Source: a virus (taxonomy: Duplodnaviria; Caudoviricetes). Taken from it: a stretch of 64,000 bases of DNA. The stretch is taken from positions 138,142 to 202,141 of IMG/VR virus record IMGVR_UViG_3300032236_001024; one strand, 5' to 3'. A model generated the notes under the pieces. The model was not told the origin of the DNA, made no database searches, and saw only the letters and a list, made by a program, of their open reading frames with translations. The position numbers and the translations under genes are program-made. Below are positions 3,534-35,093 of the stretch, piece after piece; within the stretch, counting starts at the first letter, position 1; the number at the start of each line of letters is the position of its first letter.

Positions 3534-4325
3534 TTAGGCATAAAATTTCTTGGTGGCTCTAGCTTCAAATAACCTAGTACTAGTTACTGATGAAATATCT
3601 TTGATATTAAATGCATTTGTTTCTTTTTCAGAGCACACCCACATTTCATCTTTATATCTAATAGATGCATGTCTGAACCATTCATGCCAATGATCTTTTT
3701 GTAAATCAAACCACCATTGATCTGTAATAGGATCAGGCAATTTTTTCACATGAGATGATTTAGTCCACCAAAAATTTCCACTATAATGAGGCTCAGGCTC
3801 AGTCATATAATTTGTTCCTGCAACGTCAAAATTACTGTCTAGTGAATTTATACATTGCTTCCATTCATCAATGACTCCCCATACAAGATATTCTTTCCAA
3901 TAATAATAATTTATAAAACAATCAAAATTATAAGTTTTCAAATATCTTTCAAATGATGTAATTCCTTTTGAATGATTGTAAAGAAAATATGCATCTTCTT
4001 TACATGCATGATCATATAAAAGTTTTATTGTAGTATTTTCATTAACTTGTGGAGGAAATGAATGAGCATCATTCAGTGACAATAAATTATTATCATTCCC
4101 CATAGGATTATCATATGCTGTGAACTCATACTTATTCGAAAGAGTTTTAGCTAATCCATATGCTAATCTGATATTATCTATGTTGCCGATTACTATTAGA
4201 TGAATTTTTTCTAACTCATCTAATAGTCCAGAGTCTTCCATTTTTTTATAATTATCTAAAAGAAATGAAGACCATGCAGCAACATCATCTGTCAGATATA
4301 GATGATAGTACGCATATTTTTTCAC
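3534..4325 (-). CDS. hypothetical protein of glycan-cluster type
   Basis: YNHSKG...HYSGNFWWTKSSHV motif; coupled to the sugar methyltransferase genes. Confidence 0.55.
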   Translation of the reverse strand: MKKYAYYHLYLTDDVAAWSSFLLDNYKKMEDSGLLDELEKIHLIVIGNIDNIRLAYGLAKTLSNKYEFTAYDNPMGNDNNLLSLNDAHSFPPQVNENTTIKLLYDHACKEDAYFLYNHSKGITSFERYLKTYNFDCFINYYYWKEYLVWGVIDEWKQCINSLDSNFDVAGTNYMTEPEPHYSGNFWWTKSSHVKKLPDPITDQWWFDLQKDHWHEWFRHASIRYKDEMWVCSEKETNAFNIKDISSVTSTRLFEARATKKFYA

Positions 4326-5584
4326 TTCTTCATCTCAACCTTTGGGAAATAAGTAATGAAACGATCATACTGATGTTCTTCCTTATTCCTACGTTCCTTA
4401 ATCTTATTACGAATCTCATCAAAGAAATTCCATGCAAGAGGAACGAAAAGAGTTGTACCAATATTATCAATAGCATCAGCTGATACAATCGGTATGGAAG
4501 AACCGGGAGTAAATCTTCCCTGCTTCAATGGATTATCATCAACAATAAAATCAAGCTTGATCTTAGAATAGTTGAGTAGAGTCATACCCTTTGCAGCTGC
4601 GCCATAACCAACAACATTCCAACCAATATCATTCTGACGAACAAAATCAGTTTCGTACTTAAGTTTAGTCACAATATTCTCAGCATTCTGTGCATACTTA
4701 ATATAAGTATCTTCATCATAACGCTTATTATTTCTTTCAATCTGAATCAATTGATCAATCTTACCTTCGAAGAAAGGAAAACGAATTTCAGGATTCTTTG
4801 AAATAACAAACACGTAACTAGTGCCATGAATTGGCATATACTGAACATCAAGAAGATGAAGACCAGCTCTCTTACACAATTCATTCATAGACTGAATATT
4901 AAAGAATGAAATGTGCTCATGATAGATGGTATCAAATTCATTGTTTTCAATCATGAATGCCTGTGATGTTTGAATAAACAACAAAGTATTATCATGCATA
5001 GCGTGTTTTGCAGTTTCCAAGAACCCAAGAGGATTTGGTCCATGTGCAAATACATTCTGTGCAGTGATAACATCAAATGTCATTGGGTCGCCATCAGGCG
5101 AAAGAATAGTATCATCAAGGAAATCTTCACCAAAGTAATCGCACCATACTGTGTGATTCTTAGAAGAACGCTCATACAAATTTTGAGCAGGGTCAACACC
5201 ATAAGTAATGAATCCCAATTCCTTAAAATAATCTAATTGAGTACCATCATTGCATCCAATATCAAGTACAGACAATTGCTTATCAGTTTCACCAAGCGTA
5301 GTTTTTACATACTTGGCAAAATGACCACAATGACTATGCATTGTAGTGGCTGTTCCACTAACATAAAGATAATCATCAAACATAAGATGAGGATCGACAG
5401 AATGAGTTAACTGAATGTGATAACAATCAGTACAACGATTAATAGCAAGAGGATACTCTTCCTGCACATCGTCTTTATTCAATTTATAAGAGTTTGCAAG
5501 AGGCTGAGTATTAAGATCAAGAGTAAGCTTAAGATTGTGTGATCCACATGCCACACATGATGTAAGTTCTGTACAATTTTCCAT
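4322..5584 (-). CDS. NDP-hexose C-methyltransferase (Zn-finger + SAM-dependent MTase)
   Basis: CVACGS and CTDCYHIQL Zn motifs, VLDIGCNDG, YHEHISFF, GYGAAAKG. Confidence 0.88.
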   Translation of the reverse strand: MENCTELTSCVACGSHNLKLTLDLNTQPLANSYKLNKDDVQEEYPLAINRCTDCYHIQLTHSVDPHLMFDDYLYVSGTATTMHSHCGHFAKYVKTTLGETDKQLSVLDIGCNDGTQLDYFKELGFITYGVDPAQNLYERSSKNHTVWCDYFGEDFLDDTILSPDGDPMTFDVITAQNVFAHGPNPLGFLETAKHAMHDNTLLFIQTSQAFMIENNEFDTIYHEHISFFNIQSMNELCKRAGLHLLDVQYMPIHGTSYVFVISKNPEIRFPFFEGKIDQLIQIERNNKRYDEDTYIKYAQNAENIVTKLKYETDFVRQNDIGWNVVGYGAAAKGMTLLNYSKIKLDFIVDDNPLKQGRFTPGSSIPIVSADAIDNIGTTLFVPLAWNFFDEIRNKIKERRNKEEHQYDRFITYFPKVEMKK

Positions 5585-12542: not shown

Positions 12543-12618
12543 TGGTGCTGCCAGAGAGATTCGAACTCCCGACAACCTGATTACTAATCAGGTGCTCTAC
12601 CAACTGAGCTATGGCAGC
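12543..12618 (-). tRNA. tRNA-Thr(AGU), rare A34 anticodon
   Basis: GCTGCCA/TGGCAGC acceptor (G1-C72, C2-G71), CCTGA-TT-AGT-AA-TCAGG, CCA. Confidence 0.92.
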
Positions 12619-15997: not shown

Positions 15998-16075
15998 TGG
16001 AGGGGAAGATGGGAGTCGAACCCACCTAAAAAGGTTTTGCAGACCTTGCCATAACCGCTCTGGACTCACTTCCCC
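15998..16075 (-). tRNA. tRNA-Cys(GCA)
   Basis: AAGGT-CT-GCA-AA-ACCTT, U73, CCA. Confidence 0.9.
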
Positions 16076-16085
16076 GTATAAATGA

Positions 16086-16158
16086 TGGTGGAGTAAGTGG
16101 GACTCGAACCCACCTCAGATTCCTTGCAAAGGATTCCTGCTTGCCCTGAGCCTACCCC
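16086..16158 (-). tRNA. atypical tRNA-Ala(UGC), shortened D region
   Basis: G3-U70 pair, loop TT-TGC-AA, intact T-arm, CCA; 73 nt with the 8/9 connector apparently missing. Confidence 0.7.
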
Positions 16159-16167
16159 AATTCTTAT

Positions 16168-17598
16168 TTAGTAATCGTAACGCTCATTCATGATAGTCTT
16201 GAGCATGATTGCTTCTGGAGTGAAATCATCCATATCAGCTGCAAGAACTGACTTGACGATTGCAGGAGAGAAACCAGAAACAAGAGCAGCACCACGAGTA
16301 TCATACTTCACAGGTACGTTGTCGTTAGCATTAAGGTTCCAGAAGATGATATTAGGCACCTTATAACCAGCTTCAGTATACTTGCGAGCAATCATTTCCA
16401 TTGCAGAATCATCATGGTGAGTGCACTGATCAAACTGCATATCAGAAAGGATCAACAAAGCTTCAGGCATTTCCTCTTGAGGAACATTACCATTCTTTGC
16501 AACAACAAGGATATTATCCAAAGCCATATGAAGATTGGTGTTCATTTCCCACTTCGAAGTCACCATCTGCTTGATCTTGTCGAGGATGTTGCCACGAAGA
16601 TTAAGCAACTGAGGCTGTGAAGAAAACGTTAGGAACGTATCTTTGAACTTACCTTTGTTCTTGTCAGCAAGATACAGACCCAGTGAGACTGCAACTTCAA
16701 GACAAGTTACAGTAGACTTCGACTGCCAACCACCAGCTTTTGTAGTCATTGATCCAGAAACGTCAACTAGAGGAAGGATGTTAGCATCGCCAATATAGTT
16801 AGGCAAAGCTTCCCACTGAGCAAGGATATGATTCAAATTATGCTGATCATAATGATCATAATGATTAATCATACCCTTCAGCACATCATAAGGATACACT
16901 GCACCAGCGTTAACCTTGACTTCCTTCTTGACTTCAGGATCAGTCGAAACGAGAGCAGCAGTCCATTCCTTATACTTTTCAGTATGACGAGAGAACGCCT
17001 TCTTATAACGACCAGAAGCAACAGAAGGAACATGGTTGAAGTTGATGTTATCCCAATCATTGGCGCACATCTGAGTTTCAACAACCTTAGTCAGTTCAAC
17101 CAGACGTTTACGATAGAACTTAGGAGTCCAACCAAGGTGGTTACGAAGCTTCACAGCTACTTCACCTTGACGAGGCATCCACTTAGCACAGAGACCATTT
17201 GAATCCTCAAGGGCATAACGAATTTGTTCAAACGCATAGTATTCAGCACGAGTGCCAACAAGAACCAACAGATCATCCCAGCGTCCAAGTTCAGGAACCT
17301 TACGCATCATAATCATACAATAGTCCAAATCTTCCTTAGCGAGATCAACAAGGATATCACGAAAAATCTTGCGTTCTCCTGCACCTCCACGAACGTCACG
17401 AGCCCAAAGTGCAACACGAGTTGCAAGATCAAGGTTCTCAACACGAGCAGCAGTCCATGAAGGAATTACATCCTTGCCACGCATAGCACCAATCTTAAAG
17501 AAAAGATCAGTAACTGCGTTGGCAGTGGACTTACGAGCCTTCATACCATTCTGGGTACGAACCTCTTGATTGATTACAGCATTCACGAAGGTATTCAT
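16168..17598 (-). CDS. Ro60/TROVE-like RNA-binding protein with vWA domain (DUF2828-type)
   Basis: LWARDVRGGAGER, GRWDDL, AKWMPR, VDVSGSM (MIDAS), LILSDMQFD, IFWNL, LVSGFSP. Confidence 0.85.
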   Translation of the reverse strand: MNTFVNAVINQEVRTQNGMKARKSTANAVTDLFFKIGAMRGKDVIPSWTAARVENLDLATRVALWARDVRGGAGERKIFRDILVDLAKEDLDYCMIMMRKVPELGRWDDLLVLVGTRAEYYAFEQIRYALEDSNGLCAKWMPRQGEVAVKLRNHLGWTPKFYRKRLVELTKVVETQMCANDWDNINFNHVPSVASGRYKKAFSRHTEKYKEWTAALVSTDPEVKKEVKVNAGAVYPYDVLKGMINHYDHYDQHNLNHILAQWEALPNYIGDANILPLVDVSGSMTTKAGGWQSKSTVTCLEVAVSLGLYLADKNKGKFKDTFLTFSSQPQLLNLRGNILDKIKQMVTSKWEMNTNLHMALDNILVVAKNGNVPQEEMPEALLILSDMQFDQCTHHDDSAMEMIARKYTEAGYKVPNIIFWNLNANDNVPVKYDTRGAALVSGFSPAIVKSVLAADMDDFTPEAIMLKTIMNERYDY

Positions 17599-17616
17599 TT
17601 CACTTTCTCCTTTTCT

Positions 17617-17675
17617 ACAGATTCAACTTTTGTTTGTTTTCAAGACAAATTTTGGTTTGTTGCGGAACTGAATCT
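17617..17675 (-). ncRNA. Y-RNA-like unit 1 (abuts the TROVE gene RBS)
   Basis: AGATTCAG-TTCCGCAA...TTGAATCT-GT closing stem; shares motif with units 2 and 3. Confidence 0.6.
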
Positions 17676-17682
17676 AAACTCA

Positions 17683-17775
17683 ACAGGATACACTTACTGT
17701 GGATTCGAACCACTAAGTCTGATTAAAAGTCAGATTGATAACCAATATCAAGTAATTGTTTGCTGAAGGTATCCT
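17683..17775 (-). ncRNA. Y-RNA-like unit 2 with tRNA-Lys(UUU)-like cloverleaf
   Basis: AGGATAC/GTATCCT stem, CTTCAGCAA bulge, then TTACT/AGTAA, D-like TGATA-TTGGT-TATCA, TCTGA-CTTTTAA-TCAGA, GTGG-TTCGAAT-CCAC; no CCA. Confidence 0.75.
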
Positions 17776-17783
17776 AAAACTCA

Positions 17784-17901
17784 ACAGACTGACCCCTACT
17801 TTCATTTTTTTATAGTGGATTTCATCGAAACATAACCACTTTGATTGCCTGTGGGGCAATTACCTAGCTTTTTTGATAGGTTTATGCTGAATAGTCAATC
17901 T
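17784..17901 (-). ncRNA. Y-RNA-like unit 3
   Basis: AGATTGAC-TATTCAGCA...GTCAGTCT-GT closing stem with internal hairpins (ATTGCC/GGCAAT, AGTGG/CCACT). Confidence 0.6.
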
Positions 17902-17919
17902 AAATTCTATTAACGTATA

Positions 17920-18153
17920 TTAAAGCATTCTCGACACAGTGTCAACATCAAAAATGCCTTCAACGAAATTTTCTGCACAATCTTCTGCATAACTTATGCT
18001 ATGCCTACTAACATCACGAACTTCTACCAAAACATCGTTAACATACAATCTAACATGATAACCATTATCTGCTTTGATTATATCAGCACGACGCTTTTCA
18101 TTATTCAAACTACCTGAACTATAAAAGCTAGACAAAACCATGAGTGACTCCAT
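17920..18153 (-). CDS. small hypothetical phage protein
   Basis: 77-aa ORF, C-terminal YAEDCAENFVEG. Confidence 0.6.
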   Translation of the reverse strand: MESLMVLSSFYSSGSLNNEKRRADIIKADNGYHVRLYVNDVLVEVRDVSRHSISYAEDCAENFVEGIFDVDTVSRML

Positions 18154-18161
18154 GTCGTAAT

Positions 18162-18245
18162 TGGCGGAGGGTAAAGGAATCGAACCATCAACCTTGCGGT
18201 GGCAGAGTTTTCAAGACTCTTTGAGCACCTTGCTCGCTACCCTCC
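18162..18245 (-). tRNA. tRNA-Ser(UGA)
   Basis: AGAGT-CT-TGA-AA-ACTCT, long variable arm, G73, CCA. Confidence 0.92.
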
Positions 18246-19412
18246 AATTATTAATTCAGTGATCATTTCAGCTGTTGCAGGACTTAGCGTCCAACCCAAA
18301 TGACCATGACCTGTATTATACCATACATTATCTATTGTCCTACACTTTCTAACCACAGGAAGCATGTTTGGAGTCATAGGACGCAAACCAGCCCAAGGAT
18401 TAGTGTGTTCTGTAGATATATATGGAAAATTCTTACGCACCCATTTTACTAGTGGATCGATTCTGTCCATTCGAATATCATAGTTAATACCAGCAAGTTC
18501 TGCCGTACCAGCTACTCGAAGTCTAGAACCCAACCTAGATGTTACAATCTTTGCTTCATCATCAAGAAGACTTACCACAGGGGCGTCTTCAATGCCATGA
18601 CCAACATCAAGAGTAATACTATACCCCTTCACAGGGTAAATGTCAATAGGGTCATGCAACTTTTTTGAGAATTCTGCACTATTTACACCAGCACAAAGAA
18701 CAACATGATCATACAAAGAACGTGATTCTTCAGGATCAGCCTTCATACCATACTCAAACTTTACATTGTATTTTGATTTGAGAACTTTTTCCATTTCAAC
18801 ACAGAACTTGTGAATATCGCCATTCATATCAGATGGTGTGAAGGTTCCGCCGATAATGTCCTTAGAATACTGGAGCGAAGGCTCATAGTGCATCACCTGA
18901 TTTTTGGTCAGTATGAAACGTTTGATACCAATTTTTTCATAGACCTCATCACAGCTACGTTTTGCAGCTTCAAAGTACTCTTCGTTTTTATAAAAATGAA
19001 GGATACCTTGCTTAGTTAGATTGAAGTTGATCTTTTCCTTTTCTGCAATCTCAAGATAATGTTTTCTTGATTCAAGTCCCATTTGTGCGGTAGCAATCGT
19101 TCTCTCATTCGCATCACCAGTGAGGCTATGATAAAGAAATTTGCTGATCCACTTGTATTTTGAAATCGATGGAGTTGGATTAATCAACAAAGGCGCATCC
19201 TTCTTGATCATCCATTTCATTCCCTTGATGACATTGGGAACTGTAGTCCATACATCACTGTTGCTAACTGAAAGCTGACCACCATTTGCATATGAGGTTT
19301 TCATAGCTGGGTAGTTCTCTTCGTCAATTACAGTAACATCAACTCCACGCCTAGCTAAACTATATGCAGTTGTTATTCCTGTAATACCAGCACCAATAAC
19401 AAGAATTTTCAT
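18237..19412 (-). CDS. dadA: D-amino acid dehydrogenase-like FAD oxidoreductase
   Basis: VIGAGITG, TSYANGGQLS, YPVKGYSIT, LRVAGTAE, WAGLRPMTP, NTGHGHLGWT. Confidence 0.85.
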   Translation of the reverse strand: MKILVIGAGITGITTAYSLARRGVDVTVIDEENYPAMKTSYANGGQLSVSNSDVWTTVPNVIKGMKWMIKKDAPLLINPTPSISKYKWISKFLYHSLTGDANERTIATAQMGLESRKHYLEIAEKEKINFNLTKQGILHFYKNEEYFEAAKRSCDEVYEKIGIKRFILTKNQVMHYEPSLQYSKDIIGGTFTPSDMNGDIHKFCVEMEKVLKSKYNVKFEYGMKADPEESRSLYDHVVLCAGVNSAEFSKKLHDPIDIYPVKGYSITLDVGHGIEDAPVVSLLDDEAKIVTSRLGSRLRVAGTAELAGINYDIRMDRIDPLVKWVRKNFPYISTEHTNPWAGLRPMTPNMLPVVRKCRTIDNVWYNTGHGHLGWTLSPATAEMITELIIGG

Positions 19413-32191: not shown

Positions 32192-32267
32192 TGGTAGACC
32201 CTCCGGGGCTCGAACCCGGGACAATTCGATTAAAAGTCGAGTACTCTACCTACTGAGCTAAGGGTCC
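32192..32267 (-). tRNA. tRNA-Lys(UUU)
   Basis: TCGA-CT-TTT-AA-TCGA, CCA. Confidence 0.95.
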
Positions 32268-33713: not shown

Positions 33714-35093
33714 TTATTTAAAAAGACTCTTGATCTTTTGCTTTTTATCTTCATCCAATCCACCAAACTTGGATTTGGAGAAGACTGGTTTCTCATCAGC
33801 AATATCTTCTTGTGCTGACTGTTCAACGTCATACAATCTCATCTTGGCTCTGTCAATACCCACTACAAACTTTTTATGGATTGTAGGATCATTGTAGCGA
33901 TTCTTGAGTTGCTTGATCATGATCTGATTCAACTCTTCAAGTTTTTCAGAACTGATCAATGCAAACATAAAATCTGCTGTTGCAGGCAAACCAAATGATT
34001 CGGATGTATCAGTTAACTCAACATCTGAGTTTCCGTATCCGCTTCTAGTTGTCTGAGTTGCAGAGACAATTGGAACATTAAACTCAACAGCAAGTCCTCG
34101 TAGCTCTTCTGCAATAGATTTAATGTAGGTGTAGCTATTAACATTAGAACCAGTTTTAATACGAGAAGAACAACAGATATTGAGATAATCAATATAGATG
34201 ATATCAGGAATGAAGTTTCGCTTGATACGCAACTCATTGATCAAATGCCTAAAGTGTGCTGCACCAGCTGATGCTGTTGGATATTCTTTTATGATAAGTT
34301 TTCCAGTCGTTTTTTCCTTAACACGATTGATCTTTTTATCATACACATCTTTTGGAAGAAGAAGCAATTCATCAACAGTGACGTTAAGCAAATTAGCATC
34401 AATGCGTTCTGCAATCTTTTCTTCTGCCATTTCCATCGTGATATAAAGAACATTCTTTCCTTGTGCCAGATTGTTTGTAGCACAATGACACATGAACAAT
34501 GATTTACCAACACCAGTACCAGCAAGAGCAATATTCAAACTCTTATTGATAAGACCGCCTTTGGTAATCTTATTCATATAATCCAAATCAAATGGAATAC
34601 GTTCTTTCTTCTCATGATAGAAATCAAATCGATCATCAGAGTTATTAAAATAATCATGACCAATAGACACATCAAAAGATACTCCCAAAGCTTCTGTCAG
34701 AAGATTGGGAATTGAACCTTTTGATTGTGAACTTGTTTTATCATCAAGGATTTTGATTGATGCCATGATAGCATTATAAATGGCTTTGTCCTGACAAAAC
34801 TTTTCAGTTGAGTCAAGCAGCCATTCAATCTTAGTATCTTCTTTATTAAGGTCATCAATCAAGGTCTTTGAGTCCTTGAAGATGTTTTCAGAAATACCGT
34901 CCTTGTTATCTAATTCAAGATACAAAACTTCTTTTGTAGGAAGCGCATTGTACTTCTCTACATAATCCTTGATTAGATTATAAACAGTCTTATCCGAAAG
35001 ATTATGAAAATACTCATCCTTAATAAAAGGAAGAACCTTACGTGAGTAAGGTTCGTTGTAGATCAGATGAGATAGAATTGTTTTTTCGATCAT
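33714..35093 (-). CDS. 41: replicative helicase (T4 gp41)
   Basis: AGTGVGKS, ITMEMAEE, IDYLNI, SATQTTRSG, TSESFGLPATAD, KQLKNRY. Confidence 0.96.
   Translation of the reverse strand: MIEKTILSHLIYNEPYSRKVLPFIKDEYFHNLSDKTVYNLIKDYVEKYNALPTKEVLYLELDNKDGISENIFKDSKTLIDDLNKEDTKIEWLLDSTEKFCQDKAIYNAIMASIKILDDKTSSQSKGSIPNLLTEALGVSFDVSIGHDYFNNSDDRFDFYHEKKERIPFDLDYMNKITKGGLINKSLNIALAGTGVGKSLFMCHCATNNLAQGKNVLYITMEMAEEKIAERIDANLLNVTVDELLLLPKDVYDKKINRVKEKTTGKLIIKEYPTASAGAAHFRHLINELRIKRNFIPDIIYIDYLNICCSSRIKTGSNVNSYTYIKSIAEELRGLAVEFNVPIVSATQTTRSGYGNSDVELTDTSESFGLPATADFMFALISSEKLEELNQIMIKQLKNRYNDPTIHKKFVVGIDRAKMRLYDVEQSAQEDIADEKPVFSKSKFGGLDEDKKQKIKSLFK

What the first reader, a model, noticed from the sequence alone, without database searches (positions are those of the whole stretch)
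17683..17775. tRNA-Lys(UUU) mimic mounted on a Y-like stem
Seen: D-like arm with GG loop, an exact Lys anticodon arm (TCTGA-CT-TTT-AA-TCAGA) and a TTCGAAT T-loop in normal D-anticodon-T order, but the acceptor is only 5 bp, continues into the bulged stem and has no CCA, so it cannot be charged. A genuine tRNA-Lys(UUU) exists at 32192-32267. Known: tRNA-Lys(UUU) is the target of the anticodon nuclease PrrC. Inference: a Ro60-protected decoy or inhibitor for tRNA-cleaving defences. As I recall, described YrlA mimics attach through the anticodon-stem position, which would make this architecture different.
Basis: partly seen in the sequence, partly recalled or inferred. Interest (0 to 1): 0.8.

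Follow-up and report, generated by a model that had tools for sequence, protein, structure and literature searches.

The report
Phage Y-like RNA with tRNA-Lys mimic
Just upstream of its Ro60-like ring protein, a 202-kb freshwater phage encodes a small RNA in which a non-chargeable copy of the common bacterial lysine tRNA is clamped inside a conserved "handle" stem. It belongs to a large family of phage RNAs, for which I found no published description, that display tRNA or anticodon-arm look-alikes and may bait host factors that attack tRNAs.

Summary
On the minus strand at 17774-17686 a cloverleaf (D arm with GG, Lys-type CUUUUAA anticodon loop, UUCGAAU T-loop) sits inside a 6-bp closing stem that has a 10-nt 5' bulge (CUUCAGCAAA) and a 3' UGUUGA tail. 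Rfam's tRNA model scores it 30.8 bits; ARAGORN does not call it; no CCA is encoded.

It is unit 2 of three such framed units between a sigma-70-like promoter and a 476-aa gene. That gene's model (pLDDT 92) matches only Ro60/TROVE structures at the top of a PDB fold search.

The same frame lies beside this protein family in over 150 viral and metagenome loci and in E. coli phage Bas63. Twenty-two distinct non-permuted framed tRNA mimics show strong covariation (94.6% paired; 20 of 23 pairs with double changes). They carry anticodon-type loops of about ten identities.

The mimic's 17-nt anticodon arm equals that of genuine tRNA-Lys in over 120 bacterial species. The phage's own tRNA-Lys has a different stem.

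The decoy reading is plausible but untested. The closest relatives (L002, L106) lack the Lys loop.

This scan has met the handle family before on other phage DNA. I found no published description or Rfam family.

The parts
17917..17945 (-). Sigma-70-like promoter (TTGACA, 17 nt, TAATAT) in front of the three-unit array
   Evidence: 10 of 12 matches. The equivalent TTGAC-type promoter is seen before the first unit in L104. Consensus match only; the transcription start is not mapped.
17787..17900 (-). Unit 1: framed RNA (stem GAUUGAC/GUCAGUC, motif UAUUCAGCAUAA, 3' UGUUGAG) with a structured insert
   Evidence: Module finder. MFE z=-2.1. The unit is conserved in L001, L002 and L106. Weak preQ1-I-like match, 19.1 bits, below threshold.
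17686..17774 (-). Unit 2 (the finding): closing stem, 10-nt 5' bulge with the CAGCAA motif, and a non-permuted tRNA-Lys(UUU)-like cloverleaf
   Evidence: own CM 89.9 bits; covariation; fold
17759..17768 (-). Conserved single-stranded handle motif CUUCAGCAAA next to the 5' strand of the closing stem (presumed protein-contact site)
   Evidence: CAGCAA is invariant in the 16-sequence alignment A3. It is present in frames beside the Ro60-like gene in more than 150 loci. Binding is inferred, not shown.
17718..17734 (-). Anticodon-arm mimic UCUGA-CUUUUAA-UCAGA (UUU at 17727-17725)
   Evidence: Identical in window, L001, L385 and L397. The same 17-mer lies in genuine tRNA-Lys(UUU) of more than 120 bacterial species.
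17680..17685 (-). 3' tail UGUUGA, part of the linker CUGUUGAGUUU(U)AG that joins successive units
   Evidence: Dictyostelid Class I RNAs, which have the same handle, end in CUGU in the mature RNA (PMC7919456). The ends of the phage RNA are not mapped.
17620..17674 (-). Unit 3: framed unit that forms the 5' leader of the Ro60-like gene (stem GAUUCAG/UUGAAUC, motif UUCCGCAAC) and holds a Ser(UGA)-type hairpin UUUGU-CUUGAAA-ACAAA
   Evidence: 32.8 bits with R1. The Shine-Dalgarno GGAG follows 8 nt after the stem.
16168..17598 (-). Ro60-like protein gene (476 aa; Pfam DUF2828 + DUF7788; PHROG 850 'RNA-binding protein')
   Evidence: AF2 model pLDDT 92.2. Foldseek PDB ranks 1-13 are all Ro60/TROVE, E 2e-9 to 4e-6, TM up to 0.63. 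Weak TROVE hits with the profile.
32192..32267 (-). The phage's genuine tRNA-Lys(UUU), for comparison: same loop, different anticodon stem (CUCGA/UCGAA)

Best explanation
Unit 2 is a Y-RNA-type partner RNA of the phage's Ro60-like protein.

Proposed RNA: it is transcribed from the promoter at about 17945-17917 as part of a three-unit precursor that continues into the Ro60-like mRNA. Each unit has a closing stem formed by its two ends, a single-stranded (U)UNCAGCAA motif on the 5' side, and a UGU(U) tail. Together these are the handle that the ring protein is proposed to hold.

Cargo: the variable cargo of unit 2 is a non-permuted, non-chargeable tRNA look-alike. Its anticodon arm copies the widespread bacterial tRNA-Lys(UUU) arm.

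Proposed action: the RNP presents this arm to a factor that recognises the tRNA-Lys anticodon arm. The most likely target is a host anticodon nuclease or another tRNA-targeting defence protein (PrrC-, PARIS-AriB- or RloC-like). The mimic would soak it up or occupy it while the phage translates with its own tRNA-Lys, whose anticodon stem differs.

Shown here: the structure, its conservation, the Ro60 fold of the neighbouring protein, the co-occurrence of frame and protein, and the identity of the arm to bacterial tRNA-Lys.

Inferred: transcription and processing, binding by the protein, and the decoy action.

My odds:
- real conserved structured RNA: about 0.95
- partner of the Ro60-like protein: about 0.75
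- anticodon-specific bait or decoy for a host tRNA-targeting factor: about 0.3-0.35
For: (1) Structure. The tRNA model scores above its gathering score. The MFE fold agrees. L001 shows compensatory changes. On 22 distinct framed non-permuted mimics, 94.6% of cells pair and 20 of 23 pairs show double changes. The closing stem is 6 of 6 and the anticodon stem 5 of 5, both 100% paired. Shuffles give 62.8% and slid controls 32-45%.

(2) Partner. The downstream protein has the Ro60 fold. In loci fetched by RNA patterns alone, a homolog of the protein lies in 2 of 115 loci without a frame, 10 of 55 with one frame and 33 of 62 with two or more. Frames are on the gene's strand 114 times and on the opposite strand 3 times. 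Bas63 and Ralstonia phage RSP15, with 37-40% identical proteins, have the same frame. Permuted YrlA-like cores occur in the same frames, with a sub-threshold Rfam YrlA hit in L397.

(3) Anticodon mimicry as a theme. Among 146 distinct units of 140 nt or less taken without regard to cargo, 21 hold a 5-bp/7-nt hairpin with a Y-U-NNN-R-N loop. Dinucleotide shuffles give 2.6 +/- 1.6, maximum 7. About three of the 21 are T-loops. CUUUUAA is the commonest loop. At least 37 distinct framed Lys-type arms exist in viral contigs, some beside proteins only 31-42% identical.

(4) Host-type arm. The 17-nt arm is identical in four phage lineages whose T stems and closing stems differ. It equals that of genuine tRNA-Lys in more than 120 bacterial species. 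The genuine tRNA-Lys of this phage and of L001's phage have other stems. PARIS AriB cleaves bacterial tRNA-Lys, and T5's tRNA-Lys escapes through anticodon stem-loop substitutions (PMC11455837).

(5) Counter-defence hint. Deleting Bas63 g130, a homolog of this protein, sensitises the phage to the Ppl defence system (preprint PMC11482910).
Against: - There are no expression, binding or cleavage data. No RNA run holding this stretch was listed.
- The nearest relatives after L001 (L002/L104/L105 and L106) keep the T arm but not the Lys loop. L107 lacks unit 2 altogether. The Lys cargo is therefore dispensable over short evolutionary distances.
- Known Y RNAs act as tethers and gates, not decoys (Chen 2014; phiLo Ro60-Yrl-PNPase, PMC12135203).
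- Ppl is not known to touch tRNA.
- PrrC recognition depends on wobble-base modification (my recollection). Whether the mimic gets modified is unknown.
- The host is unknown, so 'host-type arm' rests on the arm being widespread in bacteria.
- The count of Lys frames is inflated by a Lys-specific search pattern.
- The covariation alignment was fitted to the model's structure.
Confidence: 0.35

Rival explanations
1. Tether model, the canonical Y-RNA role. The tRNA-shaped cargo recruits a tRNA-binding enzyme, such as an exoribonuclease, the CCA-adding enzyme, or a modification or repair enzyme, to the Ro60-like ring. RNAs threaded through the ring are then processed, degraded or repaired. The L-shape matters; the anticodon identity is incidental or only tunes which enzyme is recruited.
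For: Y RNAs tether Ro60 to PNPase in D. radiodurans (Chen 2014). The phage phiLo Ro60-Yrl complex binds host PNPase in vitro (PMC12135203). [quoted passage not shown] Permuted YrlA-like cargos with no anticodon arm occur in the same frames. L002 and L106 keep the T arm but lose the Lys loop.
Against: It does not explain the many units whose only cargo is an anticodon-type hairpin. It does not explain why the Lys arm stays identical to the bacterial tRNA-Lys arm in four lineages while other stems drift.
Confidence: 0.3
2. Cis-acting leader or autoregulation. The units are mainly regulatory parts of the Ro60-like mRNA. The protein binds its own handle copies, especially unit 3 next to the ribosome-binding site, to set its translation. 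Unit 2's tRNA shape adds stability or a processing site rather than acting in trans.
For: Unit 3 ends 8 nt before the Shine-Dalgarno sequence. A unit in that position is kept even in distant loci that lack the others. All units lie on the gene's strand and mostly upstream.
Against: In Bas63 and RSP15 the frames lie downstream of the gene, among tRNA genes. The cargo diversity and the anticodon-loop architecture are not needed for autoregulation.
Confidence: 0.12
3. Captured tRNA-Lys relic. A tRNA-Lys gene, or part of one, recombined into a pre-existing T-arm-bearing unit within a tRNA-rich region. It persists with little or no function of its own, perhaps serving as an RNase P/Z cut site.
For: The array sits among more than 18 tRNA genes. 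L385 and L397 carry a D arm plus anticodon arm identical to real bacterial tRNA-Lys over 26 nt, which suggests capture. The cargo is lost or degraded in L002, L106 and L107. M. smegmatis YrlA is cut by RNase P.
Against: Four lineages with 64-81% identical proteins keep the arm intact, with compensatory changes elsewhere. Other family members carry intact anticodon-type loops of many identities but reduce the acceptor to 3 bp, which argues for selection on the arm rather than on RNase P processing.
Confidence: 0.13
4. A working tRNA after processing. RNase P, 3' trimming and CCA addition release a chargeable tRNA-Lys isoacceptor.
For: The tRNA model scores just above threshold. The acceptor spans 7 positions. 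M. smegmatis YrlA acquires CCA in vivo.
Against: There is an A.G mismatch in the acceptor, a 4-bp T stem, no encoded CCA, and U rather than A at the discriminator position. ARAGORN rejects it in all four phages. Relatives have only 0-3 acceptor pairs. The phage already has a canonical tRNA-Lys(UUU).
Confidence: 0.04

Closest known systems
YrlA (Y RNA-like A; Rfam RF02553; Chen et al. 2014, PMC4201824; Wang et al. 2018, bioRxiv 10.1101/312249)
   Same: A small RNA encoded beside, and on the same strand as, a Ro60-type gene. The ends pair into a stem with a conserved purine-rich motif on the 5' strand. The other module mimics tRNA (D and T arms), has no free CCA end and cannot decode. It is found in phages as well as bacteria.
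   Different: YrlA is circularly permuted (T arm, capped acceptor stem-loop, D arm), joins the stem through the anticodon-stem position and has no anticodon loop. This element is in normal D-anticodon-T order, joins through the acceptor end and has a canonical 7-nt Lys loop. The 5' motif is (U)UNCAGCAA rather than GNCGAAN0-1G. The RF02553 model gives no hit here. The partner protein is DUF2828/DUF7788, not a Pfam TROVE protein.
Deinococcus radiodurans Yrn1 (Chen et al. 2014)
   Same: Modelled with D-like, anticodon-like and T arms in the tRNA order, attached to the Ro-binding stem at the acceptor position. This is the only published precedent for this topology that I found.
   Different: Yrn1 has a 6-nt 'anticodon loop', no clear D arm and no variable region, and its module binds PNPase. 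The phage element is a full cloverleaf scoring above the Rfam tRNA threshold, with an arm identical to bacterial tRNA-Lys.
Dictyostelid Class I RNAs (Rfam RF01414; Kjellin et al. 2021, PMC7919456)
   Same: The same handle design: a conserved 5' G, a short stem joining the ends with covarying sequence, an 11-nt motif containing ACAGCAA directly after the 5' strand, a variable interior, and a 3' CUGU whose C pairs with the 5' G. RF01414 aligns end to end with 17684-17774.
   Different: The score is 22 bits against a gathering score of 41.5. Class I RNAs are 42-65 nt, eukaryotic and reported as unique to Dictyostelia, and their known binder is the RRM protein Rnp1A/CIBP. No tRNA-like cargo is described for them. 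Whether the likeness reflects common descent or a shared protein partner was not tested here.
Thermus phage phiLo Ro60 with Yrl1/Yrl2 (PMC12135203; PDB 9KOP, 9L5Y)
   Same: A phage Ro60-fold protein with two Y-like RNAs encoded just upstream. These structures are among the top fold matches to this protein.
   Different: The phiLo RNAs have a stem-bulge-stem with a CGAA motif, and no tRNA or anticodon mimicry is described. The phiLo protein is a TROVE-domain protein.
Nuclease-resistant phage tRNAs (T5 tRNA-Lys versus PARIS AriB; van den Berg et al. 2023; summarised in PMC11455837)
   Same: A phage answer to host cleavage of tRNA-Lys that turns on the sequence of the anticodon stem-loop. This phage's genuine tRNA-Lys also differs from the common bacterial arm.
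   Different: Those are working tRNAs that replace the cleaved host tRNA. The element here cannot be charged and keeps the host-type arm, which is the opposite strategy if the decoy reading is right.
Escherichia phage Bas63 (JohannRWettstein) gp130 (PhageMaP preprint, PMC11482910)
   Same: A homolog of the protein (37% identity over 97%), noted by the authors as Ro60-like and as a counter of the Ppl defence system. They guessed that some neighbouring 'tRNA genes' might be Y RNAs. I find four framed units there, one of them a permuted tRNA mimic.
   Different: The Bas63 units lie downstream of the gene and show no clear Lys or other canonical anticodon arm. The preprint describes no RNA.

Membership tests
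tRNA (Rfam RF00005) | Cloverleaf scoring at or above the family's gathering score | tested here: met
   30.8 bits against 29, E=2.4e-4 in the local search. It was not listed in the whole-window gathering-score scan.
tRNA (Rfam RF00005) | 7-nt anticodon loop with U33 and purine 37 | tested here: met
   CUUUUAA at 17729-17723
tRNA (Rfam RF00005) | Free 7-bp acceptor stem ending in a discriminator base and CCA (encoded or addable), i.e. chargeable | tested here: not met
   The acceptor has an A.G mismatch, its 3' strand continues without a break into the closing stem, and no CCA is encoded. ARAGORN does not call it in any of four phages. Processing and CCA addition in vivo cannot be tested here.
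YrlA (Rfam RF02553) | Match to the family covariance model at the gathering score (69 bits) | tested here: not met
   No RF02553 hit on 17400-18200 even at E up to 10. The model is in the library, since it gives 40.9 bits on another unit in L397.
YrlA (Rfam RF02553) | Permuted order T arm, capped acceptor stem-loop, D arm, joined to the Ro-binding stem at the anticodon-stem position | tested here: not met
   The order here is D, anticodon, T, joined at the acceptor end. The definition is from PMC4201824.
YrlA (Rfam RF02553) | GNCGAAN0-1G motif near the 5' end | tested here: not met
   The 5' motif is CUUCAGCAAA. It occupies the same position but has a different sequence.
Y RNA in the broad sense (Ro60 partner RNA) | 5' and 3' ends pair into a stem with a conserved motif or bulge on the 5' strand, plus a variable effector module | tested here: met
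   The closing stem is 100% paired with double changes at 6 of 6 pairs. The CAGCAA motif is invariant. The cargo is variable.
Y RNA in the broad sense (Ro60 partner RNA) | Encoded next to, and co-distributed with, a Ro60 ortholog | tested here: met
   The neighbouring protein has the Ro60 fold. Frames and protein co-occur: 33 of 62, 10 of 55 and 2 of 115 loci with two or more, one and no frames; same strand 114 against 3.
Y RNA in the broad sense (Ro60 partner RNA) | Physically bound by the Ro60 protein | not testable with these tools
   Needs EMSA, RIP or CLIP. No RNA-protein predictor is available here.
Ro60/TROVE proteins (for the partner gene 16168-17598) | HEAT-repeat ring plus C-terminal vWA domain with a MIDAS motif | tested here: met
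   AF2 pLDDT 92. Foldseek PDB ranks 1-13 are all Ro60/TROVE over the full length; vWA-only proteins follow. An invariant D279-x-S281-x-S283 lies at the start of the vWA part.
Ro60/TROVE proteins (for the partner gene 16168-17598) | Significant match to the Pfam TROVE domain or to Ro60 sequences | tested here: not met
   Pfam gives DUF2828 + DUF7788 only. Single-sequence PDB search finds nothing relevant. The profile reaches TROVE proteins only at E 0.014-0.05.
Dictyostelid Class I RNA (Rfam RF01414) | 5' G, short end-joining stem, 11-nt motif after the 5' strand, 3' CUGU | tested here: met
   GGAUAC, then CUUCAGCAAA, cargo, GUAUCC, then UGU. Feature list from PMC7919456. The model aligns over 1-56 of 56 positions.
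Dictyostelid Class I RNA (Rfam RF01414) | Covariance-model score at the gathering score (41.5); length 42-65 nt | tested here: not met
   22.0 bits, E=0.18. The unit is 89 nt.

The most novel reading that the evidence does not exclude
Phages with a DUF2828-type Ro60-like protein run a modular, swappable display system. One conserved handle loads onto the ring protein a set of RNAs whose cargos are copies of host tRNA anticodon arms or whole tRNA bodies: Lys here, and Arg, Cys, Gly, Ser, Glu, Phe, Thr or Ile elsewhere. Each cargo would be a specific bait for a host anticodon nuclease or other tRNA-targeting immune effector, and cargo turnover between close relatives would track the defence repertoire of the hosts. 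That would make it an RNA-based, programmable anti-defence system, and the first assigned function for the tRNA-like half of Y RNAs.
Probability: 0.25. Interest if true: 0.9.

Novelty: new variant of a known kind. Interest (0 to 1): 0.74.

Why it matters
Ro60-Y RNA particles occur from bacteria to humans, yet what the tRNA-like half of bacterial Y RNAs is for has been open since 2014.

This element and its relatives show a second way of building a tRNA mimic on a Y-type stem: non-permuted, with a real anticodon arm. In phages the mimicry extends to specific anticodon arms, and here it is the exact arm of the common bacterial tRNA-Lys. tRNA-Lys is the known target of several anti-phage nucleases.

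This turns a vague idea ('Y RNAs look like tRNA') into testable predictions:
- binding of the handle by the DUF2828-type Ro60-like protein;
- cleavage or sequestration assays with tRNA-Lys nucleases;
- plating tests.

The protein family and the handle are present in tractable phages (Bas63/Felix O1 type, RSP15, and by protein homology Listeria A511 and mycobacteriophages). One homolog already has a counter-defence phenotype.

The finding also flags unannotated RNAs hidden in phage tRNA clusters, some overlapped by probably spurious ORF calls. It raises the question of why the same handle marks the unexplained Class I RNAs of social amoebae.

Tried and rejected
- Expression: the look-up of sequencing runs listed no RNA holder for 17560-17960. 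I did not lay reads, so this says nothing about expression.
- Exact-frame pattern scan of viral contigs: 21 of 23 stretches were chance matches in coding DNA. Only the contigs of L001 and L002 were real.
- TGTTGAGTTT elsewhere in the window: 17 matches against 10.6 expected. The copies at 34014 and 34080 lie in coding sequence. There are no further units in the genome.
- BLAST of unit 2 against 50,697 cultured-phage records: no match. The L397 unit hit only genuine tRNAs over its core. I therefore found no cultured phage with a framed Lys mimic.
- Rfam on 13 related loci: tRNAs only. The large conserved framed RNA of about 230-280 nt in distant loci has no family.
- RNA repair genes in the 202-kb genome: RtcB and Rnl2 HMMs found nothing. 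The Rnl1 search is uninformative because its control rang nowhere. I draw no conclusion from these.
- Idea that the neighbouring FAD oxidoreductase (18237-19412) is MnmC-like, i.e. a wobble-U modifier: rejected. It is D-amino-acid-dehydrogenase-like, 488 bits against 59 for MnmC.
- AlphaFold DB cluster search: only DUF2828/DUF7788 entries, with organism names withheld. I could not test whether Dictyostelium has this protein.
- Single-sequence PDB search of the protein: no useful hit.
- A recent copy of the phage's own tRNA-Lys: rejected, because the arms, D arm and T arm differ.
Full report
WHAT IS THERE.

The window is the last 64 kb of a complete 202,141-bp virus genome with direct terminal repeats. 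It carries at least 19 tRNA genes, all on the minus strand.

The finding also lies on the minus strand. Read 5' to 3' it has these parts:
- UAG;
- a 6-nt strand GGAUAC (17774-17769);
- a 10-nt single-stranded stretch CUUCAGCAAA (17768-17759);
- a cloverleaf (17758-17690);
- the complementary strand GUAUCC (17691-17686);
- UGUUGA.

The cloverleaf has:
- an acceptor-like stem of seven positions with one A.G mismatch;
- U8;
- a 4-bp D stem with GG in its loop;
- the arm UCUGA-CUUUUAA-UCAGA;
- a 4-nt variable region;
- a 4-bp T stem with loop UUCGAAU.

No CCA is encoded, and the 3' acceptor strand runs directly into the closing stem.

Rfam's tRNA model scores the element 30.8 bits (gathering score 29). 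ARAGORN does not call it. The MFE fold of the 89-nt unit returns the closing stem and the three hairpins.

CONTEXT IN THE WINDOW.

The element is the second of three units of one design that fill the gap between a sigma-70-like promoter (TTGACA-17-TAATAT, 17945-17917) and a 476-aa gene (16168-17598). Each unit has a closing stem of different sequence, then (U)UNC(A/C)GCAA, a variable insert, the complementary strand and UGU. Units are joined by CUGUUGAGUUU(U)AG. Unit 3 is the gene's 5' leader.

The gene has Pfam DUF2828 + DUF7788 and PHROG 850 'RNA-binding protein'. With an alignment of 65 diverse homologs, AlphaFold gives pLDDT 92. Foldseek places only Ro60/TROVE structures in ranks 1-13: Xenopus Ro60 with Y RNA, human Ro60, D. 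radiodurans Rsr and Thermus phage phiLo Ro60, at E 2e-9 to 4e-6. vWA-only proteins follow. Sequence methods barely see this relationship. The partner is thus a divergent Ro60-fold protein, not a Pfam TROVE protein.

THE FRAME IS A CONSERVED HANDLE TIED TO THIS PROTEIN.

I fetched 160 loci encoding 60-86% identical proteins. Most have one to five such units upstream of the gene. The closing stems differ in sequence but stay paired, and the inserts range from about 30 to 300 nt.

Scans of viral contigs with RNA patterns alone recovered many more units. In those loci a homolog of the protein is present as follows:
- 2 of 115 loci with no frame;
- 10 of 55 loci with one frame;
- 33 of 62 loci with two or more frames.

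Frames are on the gene's strand 114 times against 3.

The protein family is large: 6,074 clusters at 50% identity and 711 cultured-phage records. In E. coli phage Bas63 (37% identity) and Ralstonia phage RSP15 I find the same handle among the tRNA genes next to the gene.

Some cargos are textbook permuted YrlA-like cores (T arm, capped acceptor stem-loop, D arm). One such unit, in L397, gets a sub-threshold Rfam YrlA hit. Together this makes the Y-RNA reading of the handle well supported, although binding itself is not shown.

THE NON-PERMUTED tRNA MIMIC IS A CLASS, NOT A ONE-OFF.

A covariance model built from 16 such units was searched over all fetched loci. It gave 23 hits, 22 of them distinct.

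On their alignment 94.6% of cells form standard pairs, against 62.8% in column shuffles and 32-45% when partners are slid. Twenty of 23 pairs show changes on both sides. The closing stem (6 of 6 pairs) and the anticodon stem (5 of 5 pairs) are 100% paired. One caveat: the alignment is fitted to the model's structure and includes the seed sequences.

In most members the acceptor is cut down to about 3 bp, followed by an A-rich spacer. The window's version has the longest acceptor.

The 7-nt loop always has U at position 2 and a purine at position 6. The triplets differ between members:
- UUU: window, L001, L385, L397
- UCU: five distinct units
- GCA: two units
- UCC: two units
- UGA, UUC, GAA, UGU, UAU, GAU, ACA: one unit each

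Many other units carry only an anticodon-type hairpin. I took 146 distinct units of 140 nt or less without regard to cargo. Of these, 21 have a 5-bp/7-nt hairpin with a Y-U-NNN-R-N loop, against 2.6 +/- 1.6 (maximum 7) in dinucleotide shuffles. CUUUUAA is the commonest loop; about three of the 21 are T-loops.

A Lys-specific pattern found at least 37 distinct framed Lys arms, some beside proteins only 31-42% identical. That count is biased by the pattern used.

WHOSE LYS ARM IS IT?

The 17-nt arm is identical in the window, L001, L385 and L397 (proteins 64-81% identical), although their T stems, D arms and closing stems differ.

In L385 and L397 the D arm plus anticodon arm, 26 nt in all, is an exact match to chromosomal tRNA-Lys(UUU) genes of more than 120 bacterial species from several phyla.

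The phage's own tRNA-Lys (32192-32267) and that of L001's phage have the same loop but different stems.

This fits a pattern known from T5 and PARIS. There the host nuclease AriB cuts bacterial tRNA-Lys, and the phage's tRNA-Lys escapes through anticodon stem-loop substitutions (PMC11455837). Here the working phage tRNA deviates from the bacterial arm and the non-working mimic keeps it.

The host of this phage is unknown, so this remains an argument from how widespread the arm is.

WHAT SPEAKS AGAINST A LYS-SPECIFIC ROLE.

- L002/L104/L105 and L106 (80% identical proteins) have, at the same place and in the same frame, a unit with a T arm but no canonical anticodon loop.
- L107 goes straight from unit 1 to unit 3.
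- Cargo is therefore exchanged or lost quickly. That is compatible with an arms race but equally with weak constraint.
- Published Y-RNA functions are tethering and gating (phiLo).
- The one phenotype for this protein family, Bas63 g130 countering Ppl (preprint), does not involve a known tRNA nuclease.

COMPARISON WITH KNOWN FAMILIES.

- tRNA: not a member in the functional sense. It passes the Rfam score but lacks a free, chargeable acceptor end.
- YrlA: it fails membership on model score, topology and 5' motif.
- D. radiodurans Yrn1: shares the topology only loosely.
- Dictyostelid Class I RNAs: the handle matches their published design feature for feature (5' G, short covarying stem, 11-nt ACAGCAA motif, variable interior, 3' CUGU). 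Rfam's Class I model aligns end to end at 22 bits, below its threshold. I could not test whether this is homology.
- Literature: searches found no description of this handle, of non-permuted framed tRNA mimics or of anticodon-arm cargos in Y RNAs.
- This scan: earlier reports describe the same 'CAGC-box/ACAGCAA handle' beside Ro60-like genes in other phages, mostly with permuted cargos. The family is therefore not new to the scan. The host-type Lys arm and the breadth of anticodon mimicry are what this report adds.

VERDICT.

- The Y-RNA/Ro60-like reading is well supported.
- The claim that the architecture differs from YrlA is correct.
- The decoy function is a reasonable but untested hypothesis, about one chance in three. 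The classical tether role is the main rival.
- Novelty class: a new variant of a known kind.

Noticed in passing
window 17787-17900 (-): Unit 1 of the array. Its insert ends in a hairpin followed by CCACUAUAAAAAAAUGAAAG, which gives a weak match to the preQ1-I riboswitch aptamer (19.1 bits against a gathering score of 39). The fold z-score is -2.1. The unit is conserved in L001, L002 and L106. It could be a ligand-binding or pseudoknotted cargo, or a chance resemblance.
   Followed up: partly
window 17620-17674 (-): Unit 3 is both a framed unit and the 5' leader of the Ro60-like gene. It holds a Ser(UGA)-type hairpin. Relatives have CGA, GCA or UUG loops at the same spot, with covarying stems. 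This suggests autoregulation by the protein or a sensor in the leader.
   Followed up: partly
window 16083-16157 (-): Directly after the stop codon of the Ro60-like gene lies a 73-nt element with a 7-bp acceptor-like stem, a perfect T arm and an encoded ACCA end, but no recognisable D or anticodon arm. ARAGORN and the Rfam tRNA model do not call it. There are weak hits to tmRNA 3' ends. It is absent at the same place in L001. Unexplained.
   Followed up: partly
window 16001-16075 (-): A tRNA-Cys(GCA) with an enlarged D region. Rfam finds it (38.9 bits) but ARAGORN misses it.
   Followed up: no
L044 about 2034-2273; also L009, L013, L032, L050, L054, L064, L067, L074, L077 upstream of the gene: A large (about 230-280 nt), well-conserved framed RNA, with blocks such as GGGGAUGGGG and CAGAAAAUAAAA, sits in the same handle in many distant loci. 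It has no Rfam family.
   Followed up: no
L416 (Bas63, MZ501086.1) 4216-4280, about 4384-4440, 4838-4903, 4925-5048: Four unannotated framed units lie among the Bas63 tRNA genes, one of them a permuted tRNA mimic. The last two are overlapped by annotated hypothetical CDS bas63_0137 and bas63_0138 on the opposite strand, which are probably spurious.
   Followed up: partly
L002 911-1029; L170 184-299; L076; L063; L540 (RSP15) 518-711: Canonical permuted YrlA-like cores (T arm, capped 7-bp acceptor stem-loop, D arm) are carried in the same ACAGCAA handle. One handle therefore serves both tRNA-mimic topologies.
   Followed up: partly
window 18237-19412 (-): A phage-encoded D-amino-acid-dehydrogenase-like flavoprotein (488 bits to NF009074, just under its cutoff of 494) lies between tRNA genes. 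This is an unusual auxiliary gene for a phage.
   Followed up: no
window 12543-12618 (-): A tRNA-Thr with an AGU anticodon (A34). The same tRNA is present in L001's phage (L093 7557-7632).
   Followed up: no
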